This document shows positions 21,105 to 38,469 of a stretch of 40,350 nt of DNA, piece by piece. The DNA is taken from IMG/VR virus record IMGVR_UViG_3300037419_000544, one strand, 5' to 3'. This stretch comes from a virus. A program made the position numbers and the translations under genes. Position 1 is the stretch's first letter. Each line of letters opens with the position of its first letter. Below the pieces are notes generated by a model that saw only the letters and a list, made by a program, of their open reading frames with translations, was not told the DNA's origin and searched no databases.

Positions 21105-22577
21105 ATGCCCGGAATCGACCCCACTATCGCCCTCGGCTTCAAGCAGCCGGACTCGACGCAGCAGCTTTCGGGGCTGCTGAACATTGCCAATAGCGTACAG
21201 ACGTTGCAGCAAAACCAGCAGCGAGCGCAGCAGGGTCAAATCGACCTGCAGGAACGCCAGGCCATGCAGGGCGTGCTGTCCGACCCCGCGAACTACACCG
21301 ACGATCAGGGAAATTTCGACCTGCAAAAGGCCCAGGGCGCGATCATGAAGGTTGCGCCCACCACGGGTACCAGGTACGTCACGGAGCTGGCGAACGCGCA
21401 TCGGGCCTCCACGCAGGCGACGCAGGCGCTCAATTCGCTCACGGCCGAGAACCGCTCGCAGATCGGCGCGACGCTCTCCTCTCTGCCTGAGGACGCTACT
21501 CCGGAGCTTGTCGGGAAGACGGTGGACGCTCTAGGCAAGCAATACGGCGGGCGTATCGACCCGCTGGTGTCCATCTTCAAGCAACAGTACGAGACGGCTG
21601 TCAAGCAAGGCGGCCCTCAGGCTGGTCGTGCATTCATCCTGCAATCGGCGCGGTCTGTGCTGCCTCAGGAGACGCAACAGGCCATGGCAACCCCTGGCGG
21701 TGTGCCGTTTAACACCGGCACTCAATCAGGCGTCATCAGCACCAAGCCCGGGACCTCCGTACCTCCAGGCCAGCAGTTTGCCGTCACGCAAAACCAAGTC
21801 GCGCCGTCCGGTCAGGAATCGGTCGATACGGATGCCCAGGGCAATAAGTTCGTCGTCACGCGAACGCCGAGCGGGGCGATTGTAGGAACCAGACCGCTTC
21901 AAAGCTCCAATCCATCCGCTCCCGGCCCGTTCACCATCCCGCCGAACGAGTCCCCCCAGACCTATGCAGCCCTGCAAGATGAGCGGGCGGCAGCTAAGAA
22001 CGCTGCCACTGGTGCTCCGGTGCTCCATGACGTGAACCGCACGATCATTGCGGAGGCTAACAAGGGATTCAGCACAGGCACCCTCGGTGCATGGACGCAA
22101 AAGCTCGCCAGCGCCACGGGTTACCAACTCGGGCCGAATGAGAACGCCACGGATTACAACGTGCTTGGGAAGATGCTGGAGCGCTCTGCTTTGCAGGCCG
22201 CCGCATCCATGGGGCCTCACACCAATGCGGGCCTTGAGGCTGCTGTCCGCGCGAACGGCTCGCTCGATTACACGCCTACCGCCATCAAGAAGATTGCTCG
22301 CCTAAACGATGCACTCGTCAGCGGCGCTGAGCTATATCAGCGCGGTCTGGAGAATGCCATCTCCGGCAGCAAGGACGGCGTATTCGCCAAGCGCCAATTC
22401 GATCAGGAATGGGCCAGGGTCGCCACGCCGCAGGCCCTTCGGCTGAAAAACGCCGTCGATACTGGCGACCGCGAGGATATCGATGCCATCGTCAAGGAGG
22501 TGGGAGGCAGAGGGTCCAAGGGGGCGCAAGCGCTGCACTCGCAGCTTCGCAAGCTGATTCAACTCTCTGGACAGTGA
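21105..22577 (+). CDS. Internal virion / ejection protein (P22 gp20 position)
   Basis: 490 aa, Q-rich. Synteny. Confidence 0.55.
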   Translation: MPGIDPTIALGFKQPDSTQQLSGLLNIANSVQTLQQNQQRAQQGQIDLQERQAMQGVLSDPANYTDDQGNFDLQKAQGAIMKVAPTTGTRYVTELANAHRASTQATQALNSLTAENRSQIGATLSSLPEDATPELVGKTVDALGKQYGGRIDPLVSIFKQQYETAVKQGGPQAGRAFILQSARSVLPQETQQAMATPGGVPFNTGTQSGVISTKPGTSVPPGQQFAVTQNQVAPSGQESVDTDAQGNKFVVTRTPSGAIVGTRPLQSSNPSAPGPFTIPPNESPQTYAALQDERAAAKNAATGAPVLHDVNRTIIAEANKGFSTGTLGAWTQKLASATGYQLGPNENATDYNVLGKMLERSALQAAASMGPHTNAGLEAAVRANGSLDYTPTAIKKIARLNDALVSGAELYQRGLENAISGSKDGVFAKRQFDQEWARVATPQALRLKNAVDTGDREDIDAIVKEVGGRGSKGAQALHSQLRKLIQLSGQ

Positions 22578-25042
22578 TGGACGCCTACGCAGACGCTCTC
22601 GGGGTTGCCGACAAGCCCAAGACGGTTGTCCCGCCTGAAGTGCTGGATGGACTGCGCCAGGTGGAAAGCAGCGGTAACGCCCTCGCAGTCAATCCACAGA
22701 CCGGTGCCATGGGCCCTTATCAGTTCATGCCCGGCACGGTGGCGATGCTGCGCAAACAGGGGGTGAAGTTCGACCCGTTCGATGAGAACGAGTCGCGCGC
22801 TGCCGCTGAAAGCTACCTTGGTCAGTTGATCGAAAATAACGGCGGGGACATCCGCAAGGCTCTCGGCCAGTACGGCGGCTTCGTCACCAAGGACCCGACC
22901 GCGTATGTGGATAAAGTGCTAACCGCCTCAAAGGCTTCCGCTCCTGCCACCGCCTCCGCTTCTGCGGACCCGTATGGTGAAGCACTCGGAATCGGCGGCA
23001 AACCGCAGACCGTTGCGACCACCTCCCAGCCGATTCAGCAGCCCGCCAAGCCTGCGCCCAAGCAGGCTCCCGTCCTGCACGAGCCTTCGCAGGTTGACGC
23101 TGGATTCGACCGGCTCAGCTCCTCGGCTGGCACGTTCATAACGGGGTTGGGGGCCAACATCGTCGGCGGATACAAGGGGCTGGCAACGCTTCTAACCGCG
23201 CCCATGGGGCACAAGCTGGAGGATGCCGGTAACGCAGTGACAGAGTACGTGAATCAGCACACGCACCAAGAAGGCACGCCGGAAAGTTTCGGCAGCCCGC
23301 TTAACCCGATCAATGCTCCGGGGGCTGTGTTGGACGCCGCCTCTGACCGCATCGCTGACAACTACGGCCCTGTGGCCGGCACGGTAGCCAAGACGGCCGG
23401 CAATGCCGCCTTGCTGGCGCTTGGCGTGCGGGGAAGGGCTGGGACTGCTCCGGTGGAGGTCGGCCCCAGCCGTCCGGGAACGGGAATCTATCGTCCTGTG
23501 CAGGGCATGCCGCAGGTGACGATTCCCGCTCCGGGCGAGCCCGGTCCTGTCGTTCCGCAGCCGATGCCCAAGCAGCCGGCCCCTGCGACTGCCGCAACAG
23601 CTCCCGCAGCGTCTCCTGCGGCCACGTACGCCCCGCCTCCGGCTCCGGGCAAGGTGACGATGCCGCAGCCGCTTCCGACGACTCCTGAGGGGATTGCGGC
23701 AGTCGCGCAAAAGGCGCCCTCGCAGCTTTTCCCCGAGACGCCCACGGTCGCTGCAGGAGGAAAGTTCACCCCCGCCGAACAAATGGAGCGCGCCCGCATC
23801 CTCAAGAGCGTGGGTATCGAGGATGCGCGTAACAGCGCTCTCACCGGGGATGCTATTGGCGGCTCGACCGACTTCCAGACGTCCAAGGTGGATAGCCCCG
23901 CCGGTCGACAAATGAAGGCGGTCATCGAGGGCGAGAAGCAGGCCCTTGTCACGCACGCCGACAGCCTGATCCAGAACACGGGTGGAACGCACGGTGTAGA
24001 TCAATCGGCCCTGCTGGCGCGCGGCAACACCATCATCGCACCGCTGGATGGCCTGAAGCAGTGGTTCGACAACAATATCCGTGGCCTCTACCAAGCCGCC
24101 GACGAGCGCGCCAAAGGAGTGCCGACCACGCTGGAGAACTTCAAGTCAGTTCTCGGGGACGCCTCCGAACTCACCAACTCCGACCGCGTACACCTTCAGG
24201 GCGCCGTGAATGCGTATCTGAAGAAGCTCGGAATGGTGGGGGAGGATGGCAGCATTTCCGGCAACGCGCAGGCTGCGGAGACGGTGCGCAAGTACCTCAA
24301 CGAGCAGTGGAGCCCGCAGAACAGCAAATGGGTCGGCAAGCTCAAGGACGCCCTTGACGATGACGTGACAAAGTCTGCGGGCGAGGACATCTACGCGCAG
24401 GCGCGCCAAGTTCGCGCCCTTCGTGGTGCCACGCTGGACGACCCCAATGGCATCGCCAAGCTGATGGACGCCTCTGGACCGGAGGGGATCAACCGCGCCG
24501 TTGCCACCGAGAAGATAGCCGATTCGGTGACTGGCATGCCGGTCGCCCAGTTCTCCCACATCGTCAAGACACTTCGTGAAGTGCCCGACGAGCTCCAGCC
24601 GCAATCGCAGGCCGCGCTTGCTGAAATCAAGGCGCAGTTCGCCAACAAGGTGCAAGCCATCGGCTCGTCCCAGCAAGGCCAGTGGAACGCCAAGGGCGTG
24701 ACGAAGTACCTGCAGAACAACGCCGCCCGGATGGCGCAGATATTCACGCCCGAGGAAATCGCTGCGTTCCGCAACCTGAATGACGCGGGCCACATCGTGG
24801 CGAAGGACCAGAGCTACCCGGGCGCGGCGGTGCAGGCCCACAACCTTGTCACGCAAGGGACGATGCATGCCCTGCCAACAGCGGGTGCAGCGGCCGGGGG
24901 GTTCATCGGCGGCCCGGTGGGTGCGGCGGTGGGCGCTGCTGCCGGAAAGATGGCCGCAGGAGCGGTGGAGAACGCCGCGACGCTGCGCGCTGTGCGAAAG
25001 AGAACGACGAAGCTCTCAGACCTCCTCAGGGCCGGGCAGTAG
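22577..25042 (+). CDS. Internal virion / ejection protein with N-terminal lytic transglycosylase (SLT) domain (P22 gp16 position)
   Basis: LRQVESSGNALAVNPQTGAMGPYQFMPGT is the SLT catalytic-Glu motif. ATG overlaps the upstream TGA by 1 nt. Confidence 0.75.
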   Translation: MDAYADALGVADKPKTVVPPEVLDGLRQVESSGNALAVNPQTGAMGPYQFMPGTVAMLRKQGVKFDPFDENESRAAAESYLGQLIENNGGDIRKALGQYGGFVTKDPTAYVDKVLTASKASAPATASASADPYGEALGIGGKPQTVATTSQPIQQPAKPAPKQAPVLHEPSQVDAGFDRLSSSAGTFITGLGANIVGGYKGLATLLTAPMGHKLEDAGNAVTEYVNQHTHQEGTPESFGSPLNPINAPGAVLDAASDRIADNYGPVAGTVAKTAGNAALLALGVRGRAGTAPVEVGPSRPGTGIYRPVQGMPQVTIPAPGEPGPVVPQPMPKQPAPATAATAPAASPAATYAPPPAPGKVTMPQPLPTTPEGIAAVAQKAPSQLFPETPTVAAGGKFTPAEQMERARILKSVGIEDARNSALTGDAIGGSTDFQTSKVDSPAGRQMKAVIEGEKQALVTHADSLIQNTGGTHGVDQSALLARGNTIIAPLDGLKQWFDNNIRGLYQAADERAKGVPTTLENFKSVLGDASELTNSDRVHLQGAVNAYLKKLGMVGEDGSISGNAQAAETVRKYLNEQWSPQNSKWVGKLKDALDDDVTKSAGEDIYAQARQVRALRGATLDDPNGIAKLMDASGPEGINRAVATEKIADSVTGMPVAQFSHIVKTLREVPDELQPQSQAALAEIKAQFANKVQAIGSSQQGQWNAKGVTKYLQNNAARMAQIFTPEEIAAFRNLNDAGHIVAKDQSYPGAAVQAHNLVTQGTMHALPTAGAAAGGFIGGPVGAAVGAAAGKMAAGAVENAATLRAVRKRTTKLSDLLRAGQ

Positions 25043-31782: not shown

Positions 31783-32751
31783 CTACAGGCGAGCCGCGAT
31801 CTGCTCGTTTGTCAGCCTGTAGTAGTGGTCTAGGAGGGTTTGCACCTTCCTGTGTCGGCTGATCCGCTGCAACTGTTCCACCGGCATCTTCCTCGCCATC
31901 AGCGTCAGTGCAGTCGCACGCGCATCATGGAACGTGGGGCCGTCCACCTTGGGCTGACGCACCCCGCACCCAAGGCAAGCCTTGTGGAACAAAACGGACA
32001 GTTCATTGGGTGCGACTTGCCACGGTGTGTTGGCGTAGCGGTCCATCACGCGCCGCCCTTGGTGGGTGAGAGGGAAGTCCACCAGCTTGCCGCGCCTCGT
32101 CGTCTTGCTGTCGTTGATTACGCACACCAGTCCCTGCCGGCTGGCTAGCAGGACTTCCTTGGCCCGCATGGCGGTTCTTAGGGCGATGTGGAACGCAATC
32201 CCCGCTTGCTGGGTCTTGATCCCTTGGGAGGCTTGGCAGTAGCGCAGGACGCGGCGAATCTGCCTCCAGCTCCAGACCGTCTCGCGCGGGTCCTCATTAT
32301 CGGGCCAGTCAATCCCCTCCATGGGGTTCGCTGCCATGTACTCCCACTCGATCCTGGCCTTTCGGAACAGGTTGGATAGAAGGTTGGCCTCACGGTTGAC
32401 GGTGGACCCGGTAACCGTCTTCAGGCGGTGGTCACGCCACGCTGAGACCTTCTTGCGGGTGATCGTGAGGATGGGAGTGGACTCCCCGAAGAACTCAGTG
32501 AAGTAGCCCATGCGGCGGGTCTCCCACTCCACGGCGGACTTCTTCTGCGGGCTAACTTCCCGCAAATACCTGCCCGCAACCTGCCCGAAGGTCACGCCCC
32601 GGCCGGTCTTCTCGGCCTCGATTTCCTCCTCCCGCTGGTAGCCCCACTTCCGGGCCTCGCCCTTGGTGTCGAACACCTTGGACTCGCGAACCCCCAGCTT
32701 CTCCACCTCTACCCGGAACTGACCGTGCCCGTAGGGGCGTACGTACGGCAT
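31783..32751 (-). CDS. int: Tyrosine integrase
   Basis: ALRTAMRAKE (Arg I), FHDARATALTLMA (HxxR) and SRHRKVQTLLDHYY (His/Tyr). Start at MPYVRPY after GGGAGG. The longer ORF would run through attP. Confidence 0.9.
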   Translation of the reverse strand: MPYVRPYGHGQFRVEVEKLGVRESKVFDTKGEARKWGYQREEEIEAEKTGRGVTFGQVAGRYLREVSPQKKSAVEWETRRMGYFTEFFGESTPILTITRKKVSAWRDHRLKTVTGSTVNREANLLSNLFRKARIEWEYMAANPMEGIDWPDNEDPRETVWSWRQIRRVLRYCQASQGIKTQQAGIAFHIALRTAMRAKEVLLASRQGLVCVINDSKTTRRGKLVDFPLTHQGRRVMDRYANTPWQVAPNELSVLFHKACLGCGVRQPKVDGPTFHDARATALTLMARKMPVEQLQRISRHRKVQTLLDHYYRLTNEQIAARL

Positions 32752-32770
32752 CCTGAACCTCCCGCATGTG

Positions 32771-32934
32771 TGCGGGCGATTCTGCGGGAACTTGCGGGAA
32801 TTTGAGGTGGTTGCCTGCCGATTTTCCCTCGTAATACAGAGGGATTGACAAACATCACCGACTAACGTGGTGCCGGAGAGAGGAATCGAACTCAAGAGCT
32901 AAAGTCCTCGTCTTCTGCGGGAATTTTGCGGGAA
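32771..32934 (-). other. attP: tRNA 3'-end core flanked by direct TGCGGGAA arm-type repeats
   Basis: The minus strand at 32893..32868 reads GAGTTCGATTCCTCTCTCCGGCACCA (T-loop, acceptor 3' strand, discriminator, CCA). TGCGGG[C/A][G/A]A copies start at 32771, 32783, 32793, 32916 and 32927. Confidence 0.7.
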
Positions 32935-33629: not shown

Positions 33630-34249
33630 TTCGCCTTCCCTATGGTCGTTGCGACCCGGTGCGGATGCTTCGGCAGGGGCATCCAGTACAGCGGGATGAG
33701 GTTCGGATGCAGCGGGTGCTTGGCGTACTCGTTGGCGCTGACCAACCACCACCACTTGCGGCCCTCGCCATCCTCGTCCGTCCAGAACGCCGTATCTACG
33801 TGTCCACCCTGCGTGGCGACGAGGATGTTTTCGTCCTCCGGCGCAGACTCAATGGGAAGCCAGCCAGCCGCAAGCACTGGATCGGCCGGGACTCCGGTCG
33901 CCGTGTCGATGCCGCGAAGCGTGTCAGCCAGCGCTTCGATTCCATCGGCCATCCAGTCGTACCGACCGTCCTTGCAGCCCTCGCCTTCCTTCCGGATGCG
34001 AGTGGCCTCCTCATCGCATAGTTGCGCTACCGACTCACGCTCGTCGGCGTGGCCCTCTGCGTAGGCGTGCTGCACAAACTTCTCCAGGCGTTCGCGGATG
34101 TCGTCCAGCCACATCTGCTTCGAGTCTTCCAACTCGTCTGCGCAGGCCCGGCCGTAGTCCATGACGCTCATGATGATGGAGGCGATGGTCTCACCTTGCT
34201 GCCCGTAGGCGGCTTCTACGTCTTCATGCGGAGTGGCTGTGACCATCAC
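33626..34249 (-). CDS. Protein with C-terminal DUF551-like domain
   Basis: WLPIESAPEDENILV...YWMPLPKHP. Confidence 0.65.
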   Translation of the reverse strand: MMVTATPHEDVEAAYGQQGETIASIIMSVMDYGRACADELEDSKQMWLDDIRERLEKFVQHAYAEGHADERESVAQLCDEEATRIRKEGEGCKDGRYDWMADGIEALADTLRGIDTATGVPADPVLAAGWLPIESAPEDENILVATQGGHVDTAFWTDEDGEGRKWWWLVSANEYAKHPLHPNLIPLYWMPLPKHPHRVATTIGKAK

Positions 34250-34446
34250 GCCTCCACGATATCCAAGTCCACCTTGCGCCCGATGCGGTGAACGCAGCTC
34301 CCAAGGGAGCCTTCAGCGCTCACTAAGCGGACGTAGAGATGCGACGGGATGACGGCTCGCGGGTCCGGACCGATGATTTCGTGAATTTCGCGGAGGACCG
34401 AGTGGGCCTCCATGAGCGCAAGCAGAGAAATTCGGTAGTCGTTCAT
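34246..34446 (-). CDS. Hypothetical small protein
   Basis: ATGA and GTGA overlaps on both sides. Confidence 0.55.
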   Translation of the reverse strand: MNDYRISLLALMEAHSVLREIHEIIGPDPRAVIPSHLYVRLVSAEGSLGSCVHRIGRKVDLDIVEA

Positions 34447-34715
34447 TGCATTGCCTTCTTGAGCGCTTCGGCTGCACGCTGGCGAGCCACTTCCACGGAT
34501 TGCGCGATCAGCTCGTTAGCTTCTTCGCGGGTGATCTTCTCCACGCCGTTGTGGGGAACGAACTTGTAAAGCTGGGTCTGAGCGTGGTTGATGAGCAGGT
34601 AAGCATCCGGGGCGTAGTCGCCCGGCGTGGGGATGCTTTGCACGACCATCAGCGAGAGAAAACCAACCTTCACGGCTTGGCCGGTGGTCCAGTTCTGCTT
34701 CGTCTTGGTAATCAT
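34443..34715 (-). CDS. Hypothetical protein
   Basis: 90-aa ORF with GGAGCGAACC RBS region. Confidence 0.6.
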   Translation of the reverse strand: MITKTKQNWTTGQAVKVGFLSLMVVQSIPTPGDYAPDAYLLINHAQTQLYKFVPHNGVEKITREEANELIAQSVEVARQRAAEALKKAMQ

Positions 34716-34775
34716 GGTTCGCTCCTACGAATGGGTGAAGTATAGCCACGGTTACGCGTAACGCAAGACCATTCG

Positions 34776-34979
34776 TCAGGTCGATTCGCCACGGGCAAAA
34801 GCCTCCACCTGAGCCCTCAGCCACCTCTGGAACTTCCGCGTAGACCCAGGAGCCGGAGCAGGAAACCCCTCCTGCTTGACCAGCACATCTCGGGCGTAAT
34901 CCCTCGGCACCTTCCACATGGCGGCTATGTCCTCAATGCTCATCATCTCGGCGCGCCAGATTTCGGAAAGATCACTCAC
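34776..34979 (-). CDS. AlpA/excisionase-type HTH protein (candidate Xis); start GTG 34979 or ATG 34946
   Basis: MSIEDIAAMWKVPRDYARDVLVKQEGFPAPAP...RWLRAQVEAF fits the AlpA/Xis HTH pattern. Confidence 0.5.
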   Translation of the reverse strand: MSDLSEIWRAEMMSIEDIAAMWKVPRDYARDVLVKQEGFPAPAPGSTRKFQRWLRAQVEAFARGEST

Positions 34980-34982
34980 CCC

Positions 34983-35138
34983 TCACCCCCTGCGCAGGGC
35001 CAGCCAATTGCGCAACGACAGGTCCAGGCCGATCAGGAAGAAGGCGTTGATCGGCGTCACGGCTGGCCCGAAGGCCGCCACGGTGAGGTTGGCCGCTGTG
35101 ATCGCGACGACATAGGCCAGAAGGGCGAGGATCAGCAT
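34983..35138 (-). pseudogene. 51-codon ORF resembling TM1-TM2 of a YhhQ/VUT-family queuosine-precursor transporter (truncated remnant or micro membrane protein)
   Basis: Hand translation MLILALLAYVVAITAANLTVAAFGPAVTPINAFFLIGLDLSLRNWLALRRG. Compare E. coli YhhQ LLVITSSNYLV...GAFSFPFIFLATDLTVRIFG. Overlaps the upstream stop by 7 nt. Confidence 0.35.
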
Positions 35139-35374
35139 TTGCGCTCCGTTTCGATGGTGACGCCGTGGTGCGCGGCGATGAGGGTCTGATGGCCGCCGAA
35201 CGCTCGCAGAAGGTCGTCAGCAATCTCCTCGTGGTAGCCCTCGCTGATCGCTTCGACGCGCGCGATGATCTGCTCCACTGGGATCACTTCCTTCGTGCGA
35301 ATCTCAAGCGCGAACTTGATGCGCACGCCATTGACCGGGCAGTTCGCGAAAAACTCGGTGCGATAGATGTTCAA
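35132..35374 (-). CDS. 80-aa QueF-like T-fold protein (Cys-Pro-x-x-Gly strand)
   Basis: EFFANCPVNGVRIKFALEI...EGYHEEIADDL compared with B. subtilis QueF EFTSLCPKTGQPDFATIYI...HGDFHEDCMN. TTG start in a TTGA overlap. Confidence 0.35.
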   Translation of the reverse strand: MNIYRTEFFANCPVNGVRIKFALEIRTKEVIPVEQIIARVEAISEGYHEEIADDLLRAFGGHQTLIAAHHGVTIETERKC

Positions 35375-36099
35375 GCGAACACCTCCTGTTGAATGGGAAC
35401 TGGCGCCCAGGCGGGCGCGCTGTTGTGGGCTTCGATGCGCTCCGCAATCACTGCCGCGCGCTGAGCTGCGGACGGTGGCAGGTACATGCCGAAACGATCA
35501 AGGGAGCCGCTGTTGACGGCGGCGTTCGTGCTGTCCGCGCTCGCGAGCGGCAGCTTGGAGAAGATGGCCGGGTCGAGCATGCGCAGGCCGTGCAGCTTGG
35601 CGAGCGGCCGACCTTCCGGGCACACCGCGTTCATGGCCTCGGACATGCGGCCCCACCAGGCGGAAGTTCCAGGGCTGGACCACTCGCCGGAAGACCCGAG
35701 TGCGACGGTGCGATAGACGCGGCACAGCCGCTCCAGCCGTCCGATGCTCTCGTGCAGGTGCCACACCGGGACGCCCGGTAGACGAGCGGGCCAGTCGCGC
35801 AACAGCGCGTCGTTGTCCGCCTCCTCGCCGTCGATCACGTCGGGGATCAGCGCCCAATCGAAGCCGGGATGGCGGTGCCATTCCTCGCACCAGCGGGTAT
35901 AGCCCTCCACGTCCAGAACCTCGCCGCGCTTCCACACGCTGAACGCGCCGTTGTCGAACACGAAGGACTGGCAGGCTTCGGCCACGATCCCCATGTCATC
36001 CTGACGCGGGAACGGGACGAGCGCGTGCCGGCCCATGAGGAATCGGGCAACGTCCTGGCGCGTGCCGCCGACAGGCGTGCCGTGGTAGTGGATCAACAC
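35371..36099 (-). CDS. TGT-superfamily (DpdA-like) candidate DNA/RNA guanine transglycosylase
   Basis: Ordered motifs HGTPVGGT, FVFDNGAFS, ALIPDVIDG, VALGSSGE and LASADSTNAA parallel TGT TPxFMPVGT, DSGGFQ, DE, AIGG and FDCVxPTR. GTG/TTG start at 36099/36096 after AGGAGG. Confidence 0.45.
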   Translation of the reverse strand: MLIHYHGTPVGGTRQDVARFLMGRHALVPFPRQDDMGIVAEACQSFVFDNGAFSVWKRGEVLDVEGYTRWCEEWHRHPGFDWALIPDVIDGEEADNDALLRDWPARLPGVPVWHLHESIGRLERLCRVYRTVALGSSGEWSSPGTSAWWGRMSEAMNAVCPEGRPLAKLHGLRMLDPAIFSKLPLASADSTNAAVNSGSLDRFGMYLPPSAAQRAAVIAERIEAHNSAPAWAPVPIQQEVFA

Positions 36100-36305
36100 C
36101 CGCCCTCCTGCTTCGGCGCGCACGCCCCCACGCCAGAGGCGTCGCGCTCGGCGAGCAGATCGCGCATGCGCTTGGCGAGGTACATCGACTGGCAGCGCCA
36201 GCAGCCGGAAACGCCGTCGCTGTCGCAGCGGCGCGGCTTGATCTTCTCGTCCATGAAGCGCAGCGTCGATTCCAACGCTGCGCGATCCTTGATCGGCTCA
36301 GCCAT
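36093..36305 (-). CDS. Hypothetical Cys-rich small protein
   Basis: Start MAEPIKDR (8-nt overlap with the upstream gene). Confidence 0.5.
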   Translation of the reverse strand: MAEPIKDRAALESTLRFMDEKIKPRRCDSDGVSGCWRCQSMYLAKRMRDLLAERDASGVGACAPKQEGGC

Positions 36306-36642
36306 TCTTCTCTCCATCAACCGAGTCCACGCCAGCATTGCGCTGCGCGTCTTTCATGGGCTCGCCCTCCAGCACCGTGCTCCATGCGTCGCGCCGGTTG
36401 TCCTGGTCCTCGAACACGTAGCGGAACTGCCAGCCAACGCATTCCACCGGCTGCGCCTCCTGCACGGGGAGGGACTGGAGGAGGGCAATCGCAGCTTTGG
36501 CGACAGCATCGCGCAGCGGTTCATGGTCGCTAGGCGGAAGTGCGCGACGGGCGCGGATGTATTCGCTCTGCGCGTAGTCGTCCACCAGACTCATAAAGGA
36601 GTCGATCTGCGCCCGCTGTTCCTCGGTAAGGGTGTAGGTCAT
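36298..36642 (-). CDS. Hypothetical protein
   Basis: 114-aa ORF, GC3-rich. Confidence 0.6.
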   Translation of the reverse strand: MTYTLTEEQRAQIDSFMSLVDDYAQSEYIRARRALPPSDHEPLRDAVAKAAIALLQSLPVQEAQPVECVGWQFRYVFEDQDNRRDAWSTVLEGEPMKDAQRNAGVDSVDGEKNG

Positions 36643-36665
36643 TGTCTTTGCTCCGTAGGGGTGGC

Positions 36666-37163
36666 CTACTTGATCGTCAGTCGATCCTTGGCGACGAGGC
36701 GAGCGCCAGGAACGGTGAACTTGTCCTTGATGGCGCGCCTGATGAGAACCTTGTCAGGCTCGTACTTGGCCGGGACTTCGCGCATGTAGTCCTCGGGGAT
36801 GCTTTGCGGCTCGTAGATTTCCACCGACTCATCTCGCCCTACTTCCAGCTTTGCGCAGAACGTGCCGTCGTCCGACTTGATGCTCTGGATTCCGCAAGCG
36901 GCCATGTGGGAGGCAAGGTAAGCCTTGAGCCAGTCGGAACGCTTGCGAGCCGACTTGACCCGTTCCATCAGAGACTTGGCGTGAGCCTCTACCATGTCAG
37001 CTTGCGCGTTGTTCTCCAGAACGAACGCCGCTACGGCCTTGGCCTTGCTAGCCACCAGATCCCGCGCCGCTTCGTATCCCTCCGGCAACTCCCCTGTTTC
37101 CGGGTCGATCTGCTCCAGCAGTTCTCGCACTTCCTGAGCAGCTTGGTACAGCGTGATGTTCAT
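36666..37163 (-). CDS. Siphovirus Gp157-family protein
   Basis: MNITLYQAAQEVRELLEQIDPETGELPEG...AFVLENNAQADMVEAHAKSLMERVKSARKRSDWLKAYL...VPGARLVAKDRLTIK matches the Gp157 pattern. Confidence 0.7.
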   Translation of the reverse strand: MNITLYQAAQEVRELLEQIDPETGELPEGYEAARDLVASKAKAVAAFVLENNAQADMVEAHAKSLMERVKSARKRSDWLKAYLASHMAACGIQSIKSDDGTFCAKLEVGRDESVEIYEPQSIPEDYMREVPAKYEPDKVLIRRAIKDKFTVPGARLVAKDRLTIK

Positions 37164-37323
37164 TGCGTTGTTCCTTCCATAGCTTCCAGCGAGACTCGCG
37201 CTTACGTCCTTCGTTCGTGCAGTCGTGGCACCACGAGGCGAGGCGCATGTTTCCGCTTTTCCGCCGGATCAGGGCGAACCGTGAGTCCGGCAGAAAGCGA
37301 AGGCAGTGCGAGCACTGCTTCAT
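37048..37323 (-). CDS. Zinc-ribbon ORF paralogous to the N-terminus of the adjacent HNH endonuclease; 3' end uncertain (overlaps Gp157 gene by 116 nt)
   Basis: MKQCSHCLRFLPDSRF...ASWCHDCTNEGRKRE versus HNH KRCFKCLCEKPIEAFY...LNKCKDCTKRDVAKH. ATGA coupling. Confidence 0.45.
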   Translation of the reverse strand: MKQCSHCLRFLPDSRFALIRRKSGNMRLASWCHDCTNEGRKRESRWKLWKEQRNEHHAVPSCSGSARTAGADRPGNRGVAGGIRSGAGSGG

Positions 37324-37766
37324 GCCGCATCGCGCTCCCTCGGGTCGTTGGCGACTAGGGCATGCGCTTGCTTGTGATGCGGCTGGCAAAGCCAAACCAC
37401 ATCAAGCGGAGCGCTGTAGTCGGGGTGGTGAGCGACGGCCTTCTCGCCACACACCCAGCACGGTTGCCGCTTCAGAACTCCATTCCGGATGGCGCGGATA
37501 ACCATTGCATTTGCGCGTATCCGGTCTGGAAACTCCTTGCGGTATTTCTCCGCGTAGTGAATGCGGCTTGCCAGCCGGTGATCCTGGGAGGCGCGAGCGC
37601 GGTCATACGCCCGAACCTTCTCCAGATTCTCCTGGCGATGCTTTGCCACATCACGCTTGGTGCAGTCCTTGCATTTGTTCAGGTGCCCGTCGCCCATCTG
37701 TGCGTGCTTGTAGAAAGCCTCAATTGGCTTTTCACACAAGCACTTGAAGCAGCGCTTAGTAGTCAT
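37320..37766 (-). CDS. HNH endonuclease with N-terminal zinc ribbon
   Basis: CWVCGEKAVAHHPDYSAPLDVVWLCQPHHKQAH. Start at MTTKRCFKC. Confidence 0.8.
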   Translation of the reverse strand: MTTKRCFKCLCEKPIEAFYKHAQMGDGHLNKCKDCTKRDVAKHRQENLEKVRAYDRARASQDHRLASRIHYAEKYRKEFPDRIRANAMVIRAIRNGVLKRQPCWVCGEKAVAHHPDYSAPLDVVWLCQPHHKQAHALVANDPRERDAA

Positions 37767-38469
37767 AGCGACGCATCCGCCGCGAGTTGGACGATTCCAT
37801 GTCGTACTGCATAGAGGAAGAGACAAAAGGTATGTCTTCCTCCATATCCTCAAATCCAGCCCCAGCGGCTGCGCCGGCCTTCGCGTTCGTGACAGCCTGA
37901 GCGGGCTTGTTGCCCCACTCCATGCAGCCGCCGATCTTCTCCTTCAACCAGTCGGGGAAGGACTCGTACATCGCCTTATCGACGTTGTTCACGTCGAACA
38001 CTTGGTTTTCCATCACCGGGACGGGCTTGCTGTTCTTCAGGGCGGCGGGCCAGCGGGAAACACTGGCGACGTTGGTGTAGGTCTTCTCGCCCTTCTTGTC
38101 GTGCTTCACCGTGACCATGCAGTAAGCGCCGAGGAGGGCGGTGATATCGAAGCCGCGCAGCTCTTCGTCGGTGAATGCCTTGCCGCGCCAGCTTTCCAGA
38201 TCGGCGCGCAGGTTCGCCTTCTTCACGAGGGATAGGGTGTACTGCTTGCTGATCGTCATCGGGTCGCCGTTGTCCGTCTTCAGCGGGGTGCCGTCATCGG
38301 ACTCGCCGTGCAGTTCCCATCCGATCAGGACTTTGTGCATCAGCTTCAGTTCGCCCATGTACTCGACTTCCTGCGTTCCCATGTCGATGATGCGGTAGCA
38401 CCGCGCCATGTGGTTGCCTTCGGGGACGGGCTTGAACTCCTTATTGGAGCCGGTTGCGATCAGTGCCAT
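37756..38469 (-). CDS. DUF669-type phage ssDNA-binding-like protein with SSB-tip motif EEDIPF
   Basis: FKPVPEGNHMARCYRII...KVLIGWEL... fits the DUF669 pattern. GFEDMEEDIPF resembles the bacterial SSB C-terminal tip but is followed by 22 more residues. Confidence 0.55.
   Translation of the reverse strand: MALIATGSNKEFKPVPEGNHMARCYRIIDMGTQEVEYMGELKLMHKVLIGWELHGESDDGTPLKTDNGDPMTISKQYTLSLVKKANLRADLESWRGKAFTDEELRGFDITALLGAYCMVTVKHDKKGEKTYTNVASVSRWPAALKNSKPVPVMENQVFDVNNVDKAMYESFPDWLKEKIGGCMEWGNKPAQAVTNAKAGAAAGAGFEDMEEDIPFVSSSMQYDMESSNSRRMRRYDY

What the first reader, a model, noticed from the sequence alone, without database searches (positions are those of the whole stretch)
34983..36099. Candidate minimal 7-deazaguanine DNA-modification module: TGT/DpdA-like barrel + 80-aa QueF-like T-fold protein + YhhQ-like transporter stub
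Three consecutive, overlapping minus-strand ORFs each independently recall queuosine/7-deazaguanine biology.
(i) 35371..36099 carries, in TGT order, HGTPVGGT, FVFDNGAFS, ALIPDVIDG, VALGSSGE and LASADSTNAA. These parallel the TPxFMPVGT, DSGGFQ, DE, AIGG and FDCVxPTR landmarks of tRNA-guanine transglycosylases. That is the superfamily containing DpdA, which inserts preQ0 into DNA.
(ii) 35132..35374 has EFFANCPVNG and GYHEE. These resemble the Cys-nucleophile strand (EFxSLCPxTGQPD) and FHE motif of QueF. It lacks the QPD Asp and the NADPH motif and is only 80 aa.
(iii) 34983..35138 encodes 51 residues resembling TM1-TM2 of YhhQ-type preQ0 transporters and then stops.
Both larger genes use TTG/GTG starts in TTGA overlaps. 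No folE/queD/queE/queC is present, so any modification would depend on host preQ0. I do not recognise this gene combination from described phage 7-deazaguanine clusters. It would be an anti-restriction DNA hypermodification system.
Basis: partly seen in the sequence, partly recalled or inferred. Interest (0 to 1): 0.75.

Follow-up and report, generated by a model that had tools for sequence, protein, structure and literature searches.

The report
Phage DpdA with mini QueF-like partner
A P22-like temperate phage carries a small gene set that probably swaps guanine in its DNA for a host-made 7-deazaguanine base, and one gene is an unannotated 80-residue relative of archaeosine synthase that almost always sits beside the DNA base-swapping enzyme.

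Summary

- **35371..36099(-), DpdA-type transglycosylase.** It matches PHROG 887 (E 2e-68) and phage 9g DpdA (hhalign probability 96%). It is 35-48% identical to the DpdAs of phages MED16, 7-11 and BTP1. The catalytic Asp motifs are kept, but there is no Zn site.
- **35132..35374(-), 80-aa T-fold protein.** The model has pLDDT 97.5. Its best solved-structure match is archaeal QueF-Like archaeosine synthase (TM 0.77-0.84). Cys12, His48 and Glu49 are conserved across 216 relatives. It has no NADPH motif and no QueF-type Asp.
- **34983..35138(-), transporter stub.** It is the first ~50 residues of a 157-176-aa VUT/YhhQ-family transporter that is intact in relatives.

In 57 of 58 non-redundant loci the T-fold gene lies beside a DpdA gene on the same strand. 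Gene order and flanks vary. No folE, queD, queE or queC is present.

The most likely mechanism is that DpdA inserts host preQ0 into phage DNA and the T-fold enzyme then attacks the nitrile through Cys12. The product is unknown; dG+ or dADG are the candidates. DpdA-only phages and phage YhhQ genes are already described. The mini QueF-L-like partner family carries no functional annotation in the libraries I searched. This is a new variant of a known kind and is directly testable in three cultured phages.

The parts
35371..36099 (-). DpdA-family DNA guanine transglycosylase. It is 242 aa from GTG 36099; the more likely start is TTG 36096, giving 241 aa. It belongs to the short, Zn-site-less subfamily found in 'DpdA-only' phages.
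   Evidence: - PHROG 887 'queuine tRNA-ribosyltransferase', E 2.3e-68.
- hhalign to phage 9g DpdA: probability 96.4%, E 1.3e-9. FDNGAFS aligns with LDSGAFS, and ASADSTN with YSCDSSS.
- tblastn identity: 40% to MED16 DpdA, 35% to Salmonella 7-11 DpdA, 48% to BTP1.
- AF2 model: pLDDT 90.2, eight alternating beta/alpha units.
- Invariant D49, D87, H170 and D189.
- No Pfam or NCBIfam hit.
35132..35374 (-). 80-aa QueF-L-like T-fold protein (PHROG 37496, no function assigned). The candidate active site is Cys12, His48 and Glu49, with other conserved polar residues N2, Y4, E34, D53, Q63, H69 and R78.
   Evidence: - AF2 model: pLDDT 97.5, topology bb-aa-bb.
- Foldseek against PDB: best match QueF-Like archaeosine synthase 5jyx/5k0p (E 1e-3, probability 1.0, TMq 0.77-0.84, 22% identity). 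GTP cyclohydrolase I, QueF and PTPS follow.
- Foldseek against BFVD includes a viral protein named 'Archeaosine synthase'.
- Conservation measured over 216 members.
- 0 of 216 members have the QueF NADPH motif. Position Cys+7 is Ile or Val, not Asp.
- Adjacent to DpdA in 57 of 58 dereplicated loci.
34983..35138 (-). 51-aa remnant of a VUT/YhhQ-family (Pfam Vut_1) transporter gene. Only the first ~50 codons survive and the rest is deleted.
   Evidence: - PHROG 4899, E 3.5e-6, covering profile positions 7-55 of 175.
- 60-71% identical to residues 1-50 of 157-166-aa proteins that follow the T-fold gene in relatives. No remnant of the remaining ~110 codons exists in any frame.
- The full-length relatives match Pfam PF02592 Vut_1 above its cut-off.
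- The same stub occurs in independent assemblies.
36093..36109 (-). Ribosome-binding site (AGGAGGG) and GTG/TTG start region of the DpdA gene. It overlaps the TGA of the upstream 81-aa ORF.
   Evidence: Read directly from the sequence. The family N-terminus MIHYHG comes from the alignment.

Best explanation
This is a host-dependent 7-deazaguanine DNA-modification module in the early leftward operon of a P22-like temperate phage.

**Step 1 (inferred from homology).** The DpdA-family transglycosylase removes guanine from phage DNA and inserts preQ0. D49 acts as general acid/base and D189 as nucleophile. The phage has no folE, queD, queE or queC, so the preQ0 comes from the host.

**Step 2 (inferred from fold, conserved residues and gene linkage).** The 80-aa T-fold protein works like QueF/QueF-L.
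- His48 and Glu49 at the start of helix 2 hold the 2-aminopyrimidinone edge of the base.
- Cys12 attacks the nitrile to form a covalent thioimide.
- With no NADPH site, the adduct is resolved by ammonia, giving the amidine dG+ as in QueF-L, or by water, giving the amide dADG.
- Converting the nitrile would make the reversible base exchange effectively irreversible. That would raise modification when preQ0 is scarce.

**Step 3.** In many relatives a phage VUT/YhhQ-type importer supplements preQ0 by salvage. In this lineage that gene has been reduced to a 51-aa stub, so the phage relies on host synthesis.

The expected benefit is protection of phage DNA from restriction or other DNA-targeting defences.
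For: **DpdA identity.**

**T-fold identity.**
- Fold and closest structure, QueF-L.
- Cys12 is 99%, Glu49 100% and His48 96% conserved over 216 members. Ten conserved polar residues in 80 aa point to an enzyme rather than a passive binder.
- A weak local hhalign puts EFFANCPVNG on BsQueF EFTSLCPKTG (Cys55) and GYHEE on DFHED (His96/Glu97).
- The NADPH motif is absent in all 216 members.

**Functional linkage to DpdA.**
- T-fold and DpdA are adjacent and co-directional in 57 of 58 dereplicated loci.
- Orders seen: TD 26, DT 16, DTY 11, TYD 2, YTD 1, DTy 1.
- No other neighbour family is shared by more than 6 of the 51 dereplicated viral and phage loci surveyed.
- The pair occurs in cultured phages of Pseudomonas, Microcystis and Sinorhizobium, and in genomes and MAGs mostly of Burkholderiales.
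- Start and stop codons overlap, which suggests translational coupling.

**Further pathway links.**
- Three representatives fuse the T-fold to a PTPS/QueD-like module, in both orders, next to DpdA.
- 15 of the 58 loci carry a Vut_1 gene inside the module.

**Precedent for 'locking' the exchange.** In E. coli, 9g dpdA alone gave about 790 dPreQ0 per 10^6 nt. dpdA plus the amidotransferase gat-queC gave about 45,000 dG+ per 10^6 nt (PMC6884629).

**QueF-L chemistry.** It acts on preQ0 already in nucleic acid, through a Cys thioimide and free ammonium (PMC5485725).
Against: - There is no experiment on any member of the T-fold family.
- Sequence similarity to QueF or QueF-L is not significant. Pfam, NCBIfam and PDB profile searches found nothing, and hhalign to BsQueF gave probability 1.3%. 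The link rests on predicted structure and motifs.
- The general-acid Asp of QueF/QueF-L (Cys+7) is replaced by Ile or Val, so the chemistry may differ.
- The family is mostly acidic (median pI 5.8), which is not what one expects of a protein that binds DNA on its own.
- Only a monomer was modelled, while T-fold active sites form between subunits.
- Phages MED16 and 7-11 carry this DpdA subfamily without a T-fold hit at tblastn E<=0.01, yet still contain low-level dADG. The T-fold protein is therefore not required for dADG there.
- Only 4 of 110 phage records with this DpdA carry the T-fold gene.
- The DpdA lacks the structural Zn site of TGT and bacterial DpdA.
Confidence: 0.6

Rival explanations
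1. The T-fold protein handles the free base rather than acting on DNA. It captures scarce host or imported preQ0, possibly as a reversible Cys12 thioimide. This shields preQ0 from host QueF and hands it to DpdA. Alternatively it converts free preQ0 to another base, for example the amide ADG, which DpdA then inserts.
For: - QueF-L itself forms a stable thioimide with free preQ0 (KD about 8 uM) that does not turn over (PMC5485725).
- The family is acidic.
- It is clustered with the preQ0 importer in 15 of 58 loci.
- Translational coupling with DpdA suggests a complex.
- DpdAs of this subfamily are associated with dADG rather than dPreQ0 in MED16 and 7-11.
Against: - Ten conserved polar residues are more than simple binding needs.
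- The nearest structural relative acts on nucleic-acid-bound preQ0.
- No evidence exists for a DpdA/T-fold complex.
Confidence: 0.2
2. The T-fold protein is an accessory subunit of DpdA that does no chemistry on the nitrile. It might be a specificity, stability or activation factor, analogous in role to DpdB for bacterial DpdA. Or it binds a different purine or pterin ligand.
For: - Bacterial DpdA needs a partner, DpdB, for insertion (PMC10164549).
- The QueF catalytic Asp is missing.
- Linkage alone does not specify the chemistry.
- The T-fold superfamily binds many purines and pterins: GTP cyclohydrolase I and PTPS are among the Foldseek hits.
Against: - The Cys-Pro and His-Glu motifs are conserved at the QueF positions and are near-invariant. 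That is hard to explain without thioimide-type chemistry.
- About 96% of phage records with this DpdA lack the T-fold gene, so it is not an obligate subunit.
Confidence: 0.12
3. The T-fold protein is a true QueF-type reductase that makes preQ1 for insertion, giving dPreQ1 in DNA.
For: - Phage QueF proteins studied so far are genuine NADPH-dependent reductases (PMC10516641).
- The protein shares the T-fold and the Cys/His/Glu motifs with QueF.
Against: - The NADPH motif E(S/L)K(S/A)hK(L/Y)(Y/F/W) is found in 0 of 216 members, while the B. subtilis QueF control is positive.
- The 80-aa size leaves no room for the QueF-specific elements.
- The best structural match is QueF-L, not QueF.
Confidence: 0.03
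4. The module acts on host queuosine or tRNA metabolism, for example by depleting preQ0 or modifying tRNA, rather than on phage DNA.
For: - The TGT superfamily is primarily a tRNA enzyme family.
- Hutinet 2019 considered tRNA-Q boosting for phages that carry preQ0 genes without DpdA.
Against: - The protein aligns with DpdA of phage 9g, which modifies DNA.
- It groups with the MED16 and 7-11 DpdAs, whose virion DNA contains dADG.
Confidence: 0.05

Closest known systems
QueF-Like (QueF-L) archaeosine synthase of Crenarchaeota (Pyrobaculum calidifontis; PDB 5jyx, 5k0p)
   Same: - Unimodular T-fold, and the best structural match (TMq 0.77-0.84).
- Cys at the end of strand 1 and a His-Glu pair at the start of helix 2.
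- No NADPH motif.
- Partnered with a TGT-superfamily transglycosylase that inserts preQ0 into a nucleic acid.
   Different: - 80 aa versus about 105-110 aa.
- No significant sequence similarity.
- The general-acid Asp at Cys+7 is absent.
- Viral rather than archaeal.
- The presumed substrate context is DNA (or free base), not tRNA.
- Oligomeric state and activity are unknown.
Phage 9g-type dG+ system (DpdA + Gat-QueC + FolE/QueD/QueE; Hutinet 2019)
   Same: A homologous DpdA is paired with an enzyme that processes the preQ0 nitrile after or around insertion. The presumed role is anti-restriction.
   Different: - This module has no preQ0 synthesis genes.
- The nitrile-processing candidate is a T-fold protein rather than a Gat-QueC fusion.
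- The DpdA is shorter (242 versus 317 aa).
'DpdA-only' phages (Hutinet 2019 group 3: Salmonella 7-11, BTP1; Pantoea MED16)
   Same: - Same DpdA subfamily (35-48% identity).
- Dependence on host or salvaged preQ0.
- Some members also carry a VUT/YhhQ gene next to DpdA.
   Different: Those phages gave no T-fold hit (tblastn E<=0.01). Their measured modification is low-level dADG.
Sphingomonas phage vB_StuS_MMDA13 Gp33 ('QueF-like archaeosine synthase', HHpred prediction)
   Same: - A small (98-aa) phage T-fold protein with an FCPxN...PD motif.
- An xMED-IAxDLFxxF helix and a TLxxxxHxVT strand resembling this family (hhalign E 1e-3).
- Located in a DpdA cluster.
   Different: - Only a distant relative (hhalign probability 20%).
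- It keeps the Asp and has Met-Glu instead of His-Glu.
- It sits within a complete FolE/QueD/QueC/QueE pathway.
- It is also untested.
Bacterial Dpd system (DpdA/DpdB/DpdC)
   Same: A DpdA inserts preQ0 into DNA, and a second enzyme (DpdC) then converts the nitrile, giving dADG.
   Different: - DpdC is DUF328, not a T-fold protein.
- Bacterial DpdA needs the ATPase DpdB and has a Zn site.
- That system is a restriction-modification island, not a phage module.
YhhQ / VUT family preQ0 transporter (Pfam PF02592)
   Same: Full-length homologues in related loci match Vut_1 and lie inside the module.
   Different: The window copy keeps only about 50 of 160 residues. The phage versions (157-176 aa) are shorter than the roughly 220 aa I recall for E. 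coli YhhQ (not checked here).

Membership tests
DpdA (DNA 7-deazaguanine transglycosylase, TGT superfamily) | Significant sequence homology to an experimentally validated DpdA | tested here: met
   - hhalign of profile A2 against phage 9g DpdA: probability 96.4%, E 1.3e-9, 161 columns.
- PHROG 887, E 2.3e-68.
- 40% identity to MED16 DpdA and 35% to 7-11 DpdA.
DpdA (DNA 7-deazaguanine transglycosylase, TGT superfamily) | (beta/alpha)8 TIM-barrel fold | tested here: met
   - AF2 model: pLDDT 90.2, eight alternating strand/helix units.
- Foldseek hits are all TIM barrels. arcTGT 1j2b ranks second (E 2e-3, TMq 0.57) and murine TGT 18th.
- Tryptophan synthase alpha scores equally, so the match is not TGT-specific.
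DpdA (DNA 7-deazaguanine transglycosylase, TGT superfamily) | Catalytic general acid/base Asp (D-x-G-x-F) and nucleophile Asp | tested here: met
   - D49 with F53, and D189, are invariant in 26- and 69-sequence alignments.
- They align to the LDSGAF and CDSS motifs of 9g DpdA.
- Equivalence to S. Montevideo Asp95/Phe99/Asp256 (PMC10164549) is inferred.
DpdA (DNA 7-deazaguanine transglycosylase, TGT superfamily) | Base-recognising Asp (Asp130 in S. Montevideo DpdA) | tested here: inconclusive
   P86-D87 (IPDVIDG) is invariant. It was not aligned to a solved DpdA or TGT structure residue by residue.
DpdA (DNA 7-deazaguanine transglycosylase, TGT superfamily) | Structural Zn site (Cys/Cys/Cys/His cluster) conserved in TGTs and bacterial DpdA | tested here: not met
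   - No invariant Cys appears in the 69-sequence alignment; only C160 is about 90% conserved.
- The protein ends before the region where the Zn subdomain lies: PHROG 887 match covers profile positions 10-251 of 509.
DpdA (DNA 7-deazaguanine transglycosylase, TGT superfamily) | Guanine to preQ0 exchange in DNA | not testable with these tools
   Requires an enzyme assay or nucleoside LC-MS/MS.
QueF-L / QueF (T-fold nitrile-processing enzymes) | T-fold (bb-aa-bb) domain | tested here: met
   - AF2 model: pLDDT 97.5, with strands 2-11, 18-27, 62-69 and 72-79 and helices 33-42 and 48-59.
- Foldseek top hits are QueF-L, then GTP cyclohydrolase I, QueF and PTPS.
QueF-L / QueF (T-fold nitrile-processing enzymes) | Nucleophilic Cys at the end of strand 1 (Cys55 in BsQueF, Cys21 in QueF-L) | tested here: met
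   - C12-P13 is conserved in 213 of 215 and 209 of 215 members.
- It lies in the strand 1 to strand 2 loop of the model.
- Local hhalign aligns it to Cys55 of BsQueF, but the alignment is not significant.
QueF-L / QueF (T-fold nitrile-processing enzymes) | His-Glu pair binding the substrate (His96/Glu97 in BsQueF) | tested here: met
   - H48 is present in 208 of 216 members and E49 in 216 of 216. They lie at the N-terminus of helix 2.
- They align to the FHED motif of BsQueF.
QueF-L / QueF (T-fold nitrile-processing enzymes) | General acid/base Asp seven residues after the Cys (QPD) | tested here: not met
   Position Cys+7 is Ile in 174 members and Val in 28 of 208.
QueF-L / QueF (T-fold nitrile-processing enzymes) | QueF NADPH-binding motif E(S/L)K(S/A)hK(L/Y)(Y/F/W) (defines QueF; absent from QueF-L) | tested here: not met
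   0 of 216 members have the motif, and the BsQueF control is positive. The family therefore resembles QueF-L, not QueF.
QueF-L / QueF (T-fold nitrile-processing enzymes) | Significant sequence-profile similarity to the family | tested here: not met
   - No Pfam or NCBIfam hit.
- The family profile against PDB sequences finds no QueF or QueF-L.
- hhalign to BsQueF: probability 1.3%.
QueF-L / QueF (T-fold nitrile-processing enzymes) | Tunnel-shaped homo-oligomer with inter-subunit active sites; thioimide formation; amidine product | not testable with these tools
   No multimer prediction job was available. Biochemistry is required.
VUT / YhhQ transporter (Pfam PF02592 Vut_1) | Homology to Vut_1 | tested here: met
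   - The stub is 60-71% identical to residues 1-50 of the 157-166-aa neighbours of T-fold genes.
- Full-length neighbours (157-176 aa) score 30-51 bits on Vut_1, above the 27.2-bit cut-off.
- The stub itself matches only PHROG 4899.
VUT / YhhQ transporter (Pfam PF02592 Vut_1) | Complete multi-helix membrane domain | tested here: not met
   Only 51 codons remain, and no trace of the remaining ~110 codons exists in any frame.

The most novel reading that the evidence does not exclude
The 80-aa proteins (about 475 clusters at 50% identity) are a new, minimal family of T-fold enzymes. They use a QueF-type Cys thioimide, with a different acid/base set-up, to convert the nitrile of host-derived preQ0 in phage DNA or just before insertion. 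The product would be dG+, dADG or an undescribed derivative. This would give 'DpdA-only' temperate phages and prophages of Burkholderiales, Pseudomonas, rhizobia and cyanobacteria a two-gene route to hypermodified DNA. The rare fusions to a QueD/PTPS-like module hint that some variants go further, for example nitrile to carboxylate to 7-deazaguanine.
Probability: 0.45. Interest if true: 0.7.

Novelty: new variant of a known kind. Interest (0 to 1): 0.6.

Why it matters
Phage 7-deazaguanine DNA modification is an active field. The largest class of DpdA phages, those with DpdA and nothing else, is its least understood part. What is inserted in those phages, at what level, and how dADG arises are all open questions.

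This analysis defines a conserved two-gene module, sometimes three genes. In it, a DpdA of that class is nearly always paired with a functionally unannotated mini T-fold protein. The closest structural relative of that protein is the only T-fold enzyme known to act on preQ0 in a nucleic acid.

If the protein is active, three things would follow:
- It would be a new nitrile-processing enzyme for DNA hypermodification.
- It would be the smallest QueF-type catalyst known, using a different acid/base solution.
- It could serve as a marker for predicting modified phage genomes in metagenomes.

The module occurs in three cultured phages (EPa33, RHph_X2_30, Mae-JY30), so the hypothesis can be tested at once.

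Tried and rejected
- **Family libraries.** Pfam and NCBIfam scans of the three products gave nothing meaningful.
- **PDB by sequence.** Searches with the single DpdA sequence, the DpdA profile A2 and the T-fold profile A1 found no TGT or QueF.
- **Megablast.** The window half 20000-40350 has no close relative in the phage collection.
- **Foldseek of the DpdA model.** It confirms a TIM barrel but does not discriminate TGT from tryptophan synthase alpha. The DpdA assignment therefore rests on sequence profiles.
- **Residue-level mapping to QueF-L.** This failed. The structure paper PMC5167649 is not held. QueF-L ranks only eighth in a BsQueF search, so its alignment was not printed. MMDA13 Gp33 hits nothing in PDB. 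The mapping rests on a non-significant local hhalign to BsQueF plus the model's secondary structure.
- **T-fold as QueF reductase.** Rejected because the NADPH motif is absent.
- **Stub as frameshifted pseudogene.** Rejected. tblastn with 21 full-length homologues finds only residues 1-50.
- **PTPS-like module as a separate neighbour gene.** One weak hit only.
- **Literature on EPa33, Mae-JY30 and RHph_X2_30.** No DNA-modification data found.
- **Fusion contexts.** The contig carrying P0199 is too short to be informative.
Full report
**1. What is in the sequence.**

Three consecutive minus-strand ORFs sit at 35371..36099 (242 aa), 35132..35374 (80 aa) and 34983..35138 (51 aa).

The ORFs are tightly coupled:
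- The DpdA stop and the T-fold TTG start share TTGA.
- The T-fold stop and the ATG of the 51-aa ORF overlap in ATGCTGA.
- 36099 is a GTG. The next codon, TTG at 36096, overlaps the TGA of the upstream 81-aa ORF and lies 6 nt after GGAGGG. It reproduces the family N-terminus MIHYHG, so it is the more probable start.

The window is a P22-like temperate phage with 61% G+C. It has a P22-type portal and coat, terminase, NinB and NinG, an S24 repressor and an integrase at 31783..32895(-). The module lies in the early leftward operon, between the recombination genes (Gp157, endonuclease) and the integrase. Salmonella P22-like phages such as BTP1 carry their DpdA in the same kind of region.

**2. The 242-aa protein is a DpdA.**

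Pfam and NCBIfam are silent, but other evidence is strong:
- PHROG 887 'queuine tRNA-ribosyltransferase' matches at E 2.3e-68.
- A 26-sequence profile aligns with the experimentally validated DpdA of phage 9g at hhalign probability 96.4%, E 1.3e-9. FDNGAFS falls on LDSGAFS, LHGLRML on VHGFGIT, and ASADSTN on YSCDSSS.
- By tblastn it is 40% identical to the DpdA of Pantoea phage MED16, 35% to Salmonella phage 7-11, and 48% to BTP1.

These are the 'DpdA-only' phages of Hutinet et al. 2019. For MED16 and 7-11, mass spectrometry found low-level dADG in virion DNA.

AlphaFold gives a confident model (pLDDT 90.2) with eight alternating strands and helices. Foldseek returns only TIM barrels. arcTGT ranks second, but tryptophan synthase alpha scores equally, so the fold search confirms the barrel and not the family.

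D49 (with F53), D87, H170 and D189 are invariant. By position they correspond to the acid/base Asp, the base-recognising Asp, the His and the nucleophile Asp described for S. Montevideo DpdA. That last equivalence is inferred.

No conserved Cys cluster exists, so this short subfamily lacks the structural Zn site. The family is very large: more than 7,900 clusters at 90% identity were scored. Every source name seen among the listed hits is 'hypothetical protein' or equivalent.

**3. The 80-aa protein is a T-fold protein closest to QueF-L.**

PHROG 37496 (unknown function) matches at E 3e-20. Pfam and NCBIfam find nothing.

Structure evidence:
- With a 26-sequence alignment, AlphaFold gives pLDDT 97.5 and the bb-aa-bb topology of the tunnelling fold.
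- Foldseek against PDB is led by 12 chains of the Pyrobaculum QueF-Like archaeosine synthase (E about 1e-3, probability 1.0, TMq 0.77-0.84, 21-22% identity).
- GTP cyclohydrolase I, V. cholerae QueF and PTPS follow.
- Against BFVD, the third hit is a viral protein named 'Archeaosine synthase'.

An exhaustive HMM search finds 475 clusters at 50% identity. Conservation was measured over 216 members:
- At least 97% conserved: N2, Y4, F8, C12, P13, E34, E49, A52, A67, H69, R78.
- At least 90% conserved: Y21, H48, D53, G61, Q63, V72, I74, T76.

A non-significant local hhalign places EFFANCPVNG on EFTSLCPKTG of B. subtilis QueF (Cys55) and GYHEE on DFHED (His96/Glu97). This is consistent with the secondary-structure positions.

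The NADPH motif that defines QueF is absent from all 216 members. The QPD Asp is replaced by Ile or Val. The protein is therefore QueF-L-like in fold, size class and motifs, but it fails two membership criteria: significant sequence similarity and the catalytic Asp.

**4. The 51-aa ORF is a truncated VUT/YhhQ gene.**

In relatives, a 157-176-aa gene follows or precedes the T-fold gene. These proteins match Pfam Vut_1 above the gathering threshold. The window ORF is 60-71% identical to their first 48-50 residues and then stops. No frame downstream holds the remainder.

The same stub occurs on 9 contigs from JGI and Logan assemblies. Six of the seven contigs retrieved are 100% identical to the window. 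This shows the truncation is not an assembly artefact, but the contigs are not independent lineages.

**5. Gene linkage.**

I collected 80 IMG/VR loci, 3 cultured phages, 7 bacterial genomes or MAGs, and the window. Dereplication at about 90% identity left 58 loci. In 57 of them the T-fold gene lies within about 500 nt of a DpdA-like gene on the same strand.

| Arrangement | Loci |
|---|---|
| TD | 26 |
| DT | 16 |
| DTY | 11 |
| TYD | 2 |
| YTD | 1 |
| DTy (the window) | 1 |
| T alone (L035) | 1 |

(T = T-fold, D = DpdA, Y = full-length Vut_1, y = stub.)

- Among the 51 dereplicated viral and phage loci surveyed for neighbours, no other gene family is shared by more than 6. The window's own flanking genes are specific to its lineage.
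- Hosts range from Pseudomonas (EPa33), Sinorhizobium (RHph_X2_30) and Microcystis (Mae-JY30) to Rhodoferax, Massilia, Caballeronia and Noviherbaspirillum.
- No FolE, QueD, QueC or QueE homologue was detected within 6 kb in any viral locus, or anywhere in the window.
- Conversely, only 4 of 110 phage records with this DpdA have the T-fold gene. It is a recurrent accessory, not an obligate partner.

**6. Mechanism.**

*Shown here:* the identities, the conserved residues and the linkage.

*Inferred:* DpdA inserts host preQ0. The T-fold protein then attacks the nitrile with Cys12 while His48 and Glu49 hold the base, as in QueF and QueF-L. Without NADPH, the adduct would be resolved by ammonia to give dG+, or by water to give dADG.

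A rationale for pairing this enzyme with a precursor-poor DpdA comes from phage 9g genes in E. coli. dpdA alone gave about 790 dPreQ0 per 10^6 nt. dpdA plus the amidotransferase gave about 45,000 dG+ per 10^6 nt. Removing the nitrile product may pull the reversible exchange forward.

Caveats:
- The Asp is missing.
- The family is acidic, with median pI 5.8.
- Only a monomer was modelled.
- T-fold-less relatives already contain dADG.

The main rival is that the protein handles free preQ0, by capture, hand-off, or conversion before insertion.

**7. Comparison with the literature.**

- Hutinet 2019 described DpdA-only phages and noted phage YhhQ genes.
- Hutinet 2023 reported that no phage QueF sequence aligned with QueF-L and that phage QueFs retain the NADPH motif.
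- A 98-aa 'QueF-like archaeosine synthase' was predicted by HHpred in Sphingomonas phage MMDA13, inside a full preQ0 cluster. It is only a distant relative of this family: hhalign E 1e-3, probability 20%.
- Bacterial DpdC, which makes dADG, is DUF328 and not a T-fold protein.
- I found no paper that treats PHROG 37496 or this DpdA/T-fold pairing.

**8. Verdict.**

The module is a new variant of the known phage 7-deazaguanine systems. Its new element is a compact QueF-L-like family tightly linked to DpdA. Activity and product remain to be shown.

Noticed in passing
P0199, P0232, P0203; loci L100:48-608, L104:313-855, L101:636-1190: Three representatives of the T-fold family are fused to a ~95-aa PTPS/QueD-like module with the xxAH...HGH zinc motif. 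The module is N-terminal in two and C-terminal in one, so these look like independent fusions. In L101 and L104 a DpdA-like gene follows directly. These bimodular T-fold proteins may carry out extra chemistry, comparable to the QueD-like DpdL decarboxylase proposed by Hutinet 2023.
   Followed up: partly
P0318 (214 aa): One family member is fused to an N-terminal nucleoside 2-deoxyribosyltransferase domain (Pfam PF05014, E 2e-10). This is another link to base- or nucleoside-exchange chemistry.
   Followed up: no
L035:6001-6240: This is the only dereplicated locus where the T-fold gene has no DpdA-like gene within 6 kb, even though most of the conserved residues, including C12, H48 and E49, are kept. 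DpdA may lie elsewhere on the 40.9-kb contig.
   Followed up: partly
L090 (aligns to window 34116-37926); variant region window 35405-35439: One metagenome contig of the same phage differs from the window only near the 3' end of the DpdA gene: 10 mismatches and a gap. There the gene caller splits DpdA into 150-aa and 163-aa products and calls no separate 80-aa gene. This is a possible natural DpdA-disrupted or fused variant.
   Followed up: no
window 36093-36338 (-): The 81-aa ORF just upstream of DpdA is translationally coupled to it. It contains C-x8-C-x2-C (RRCDSDGVSGCWRC), has no family match, and is found only in this phage lineage.
   Followed up: partly
window 1-40350: The window looks like a near-complete P22-like temperate phage genome of a 61% G+C host. 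It has a P22 portal and coat, terminase, NinB/NinG, an S24 repressor, an integrase at 31783-32895(-), and an internal virion protein with a lysozyme/SLT domain at 22409-25042(+). It has no megablast relative among 50,697 phage records. The closest T-fold relatives in genomes are mostly Burkholderiales.
   Followed up: partly
L011:2376-2876, L014:6237-6710, L003:3221-3751 and 18 others: The phage VUT/YhhQ homologues are short (157-176 aa). They match only the C-terminal half of the Pfam Vut_1 model, so they may be a reduced transporter subfamily.
   Followed up: no
L001 (Pseudomonas phage EPa33) 4743-6833: In EPa33 the T-fold/DpdA pair is followed directly by a 696-aa protein annotated as a C-5 cytosine-specific DNA methylase. 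That phage may therefore stack two DNA-modification systems.
   Followed up: no
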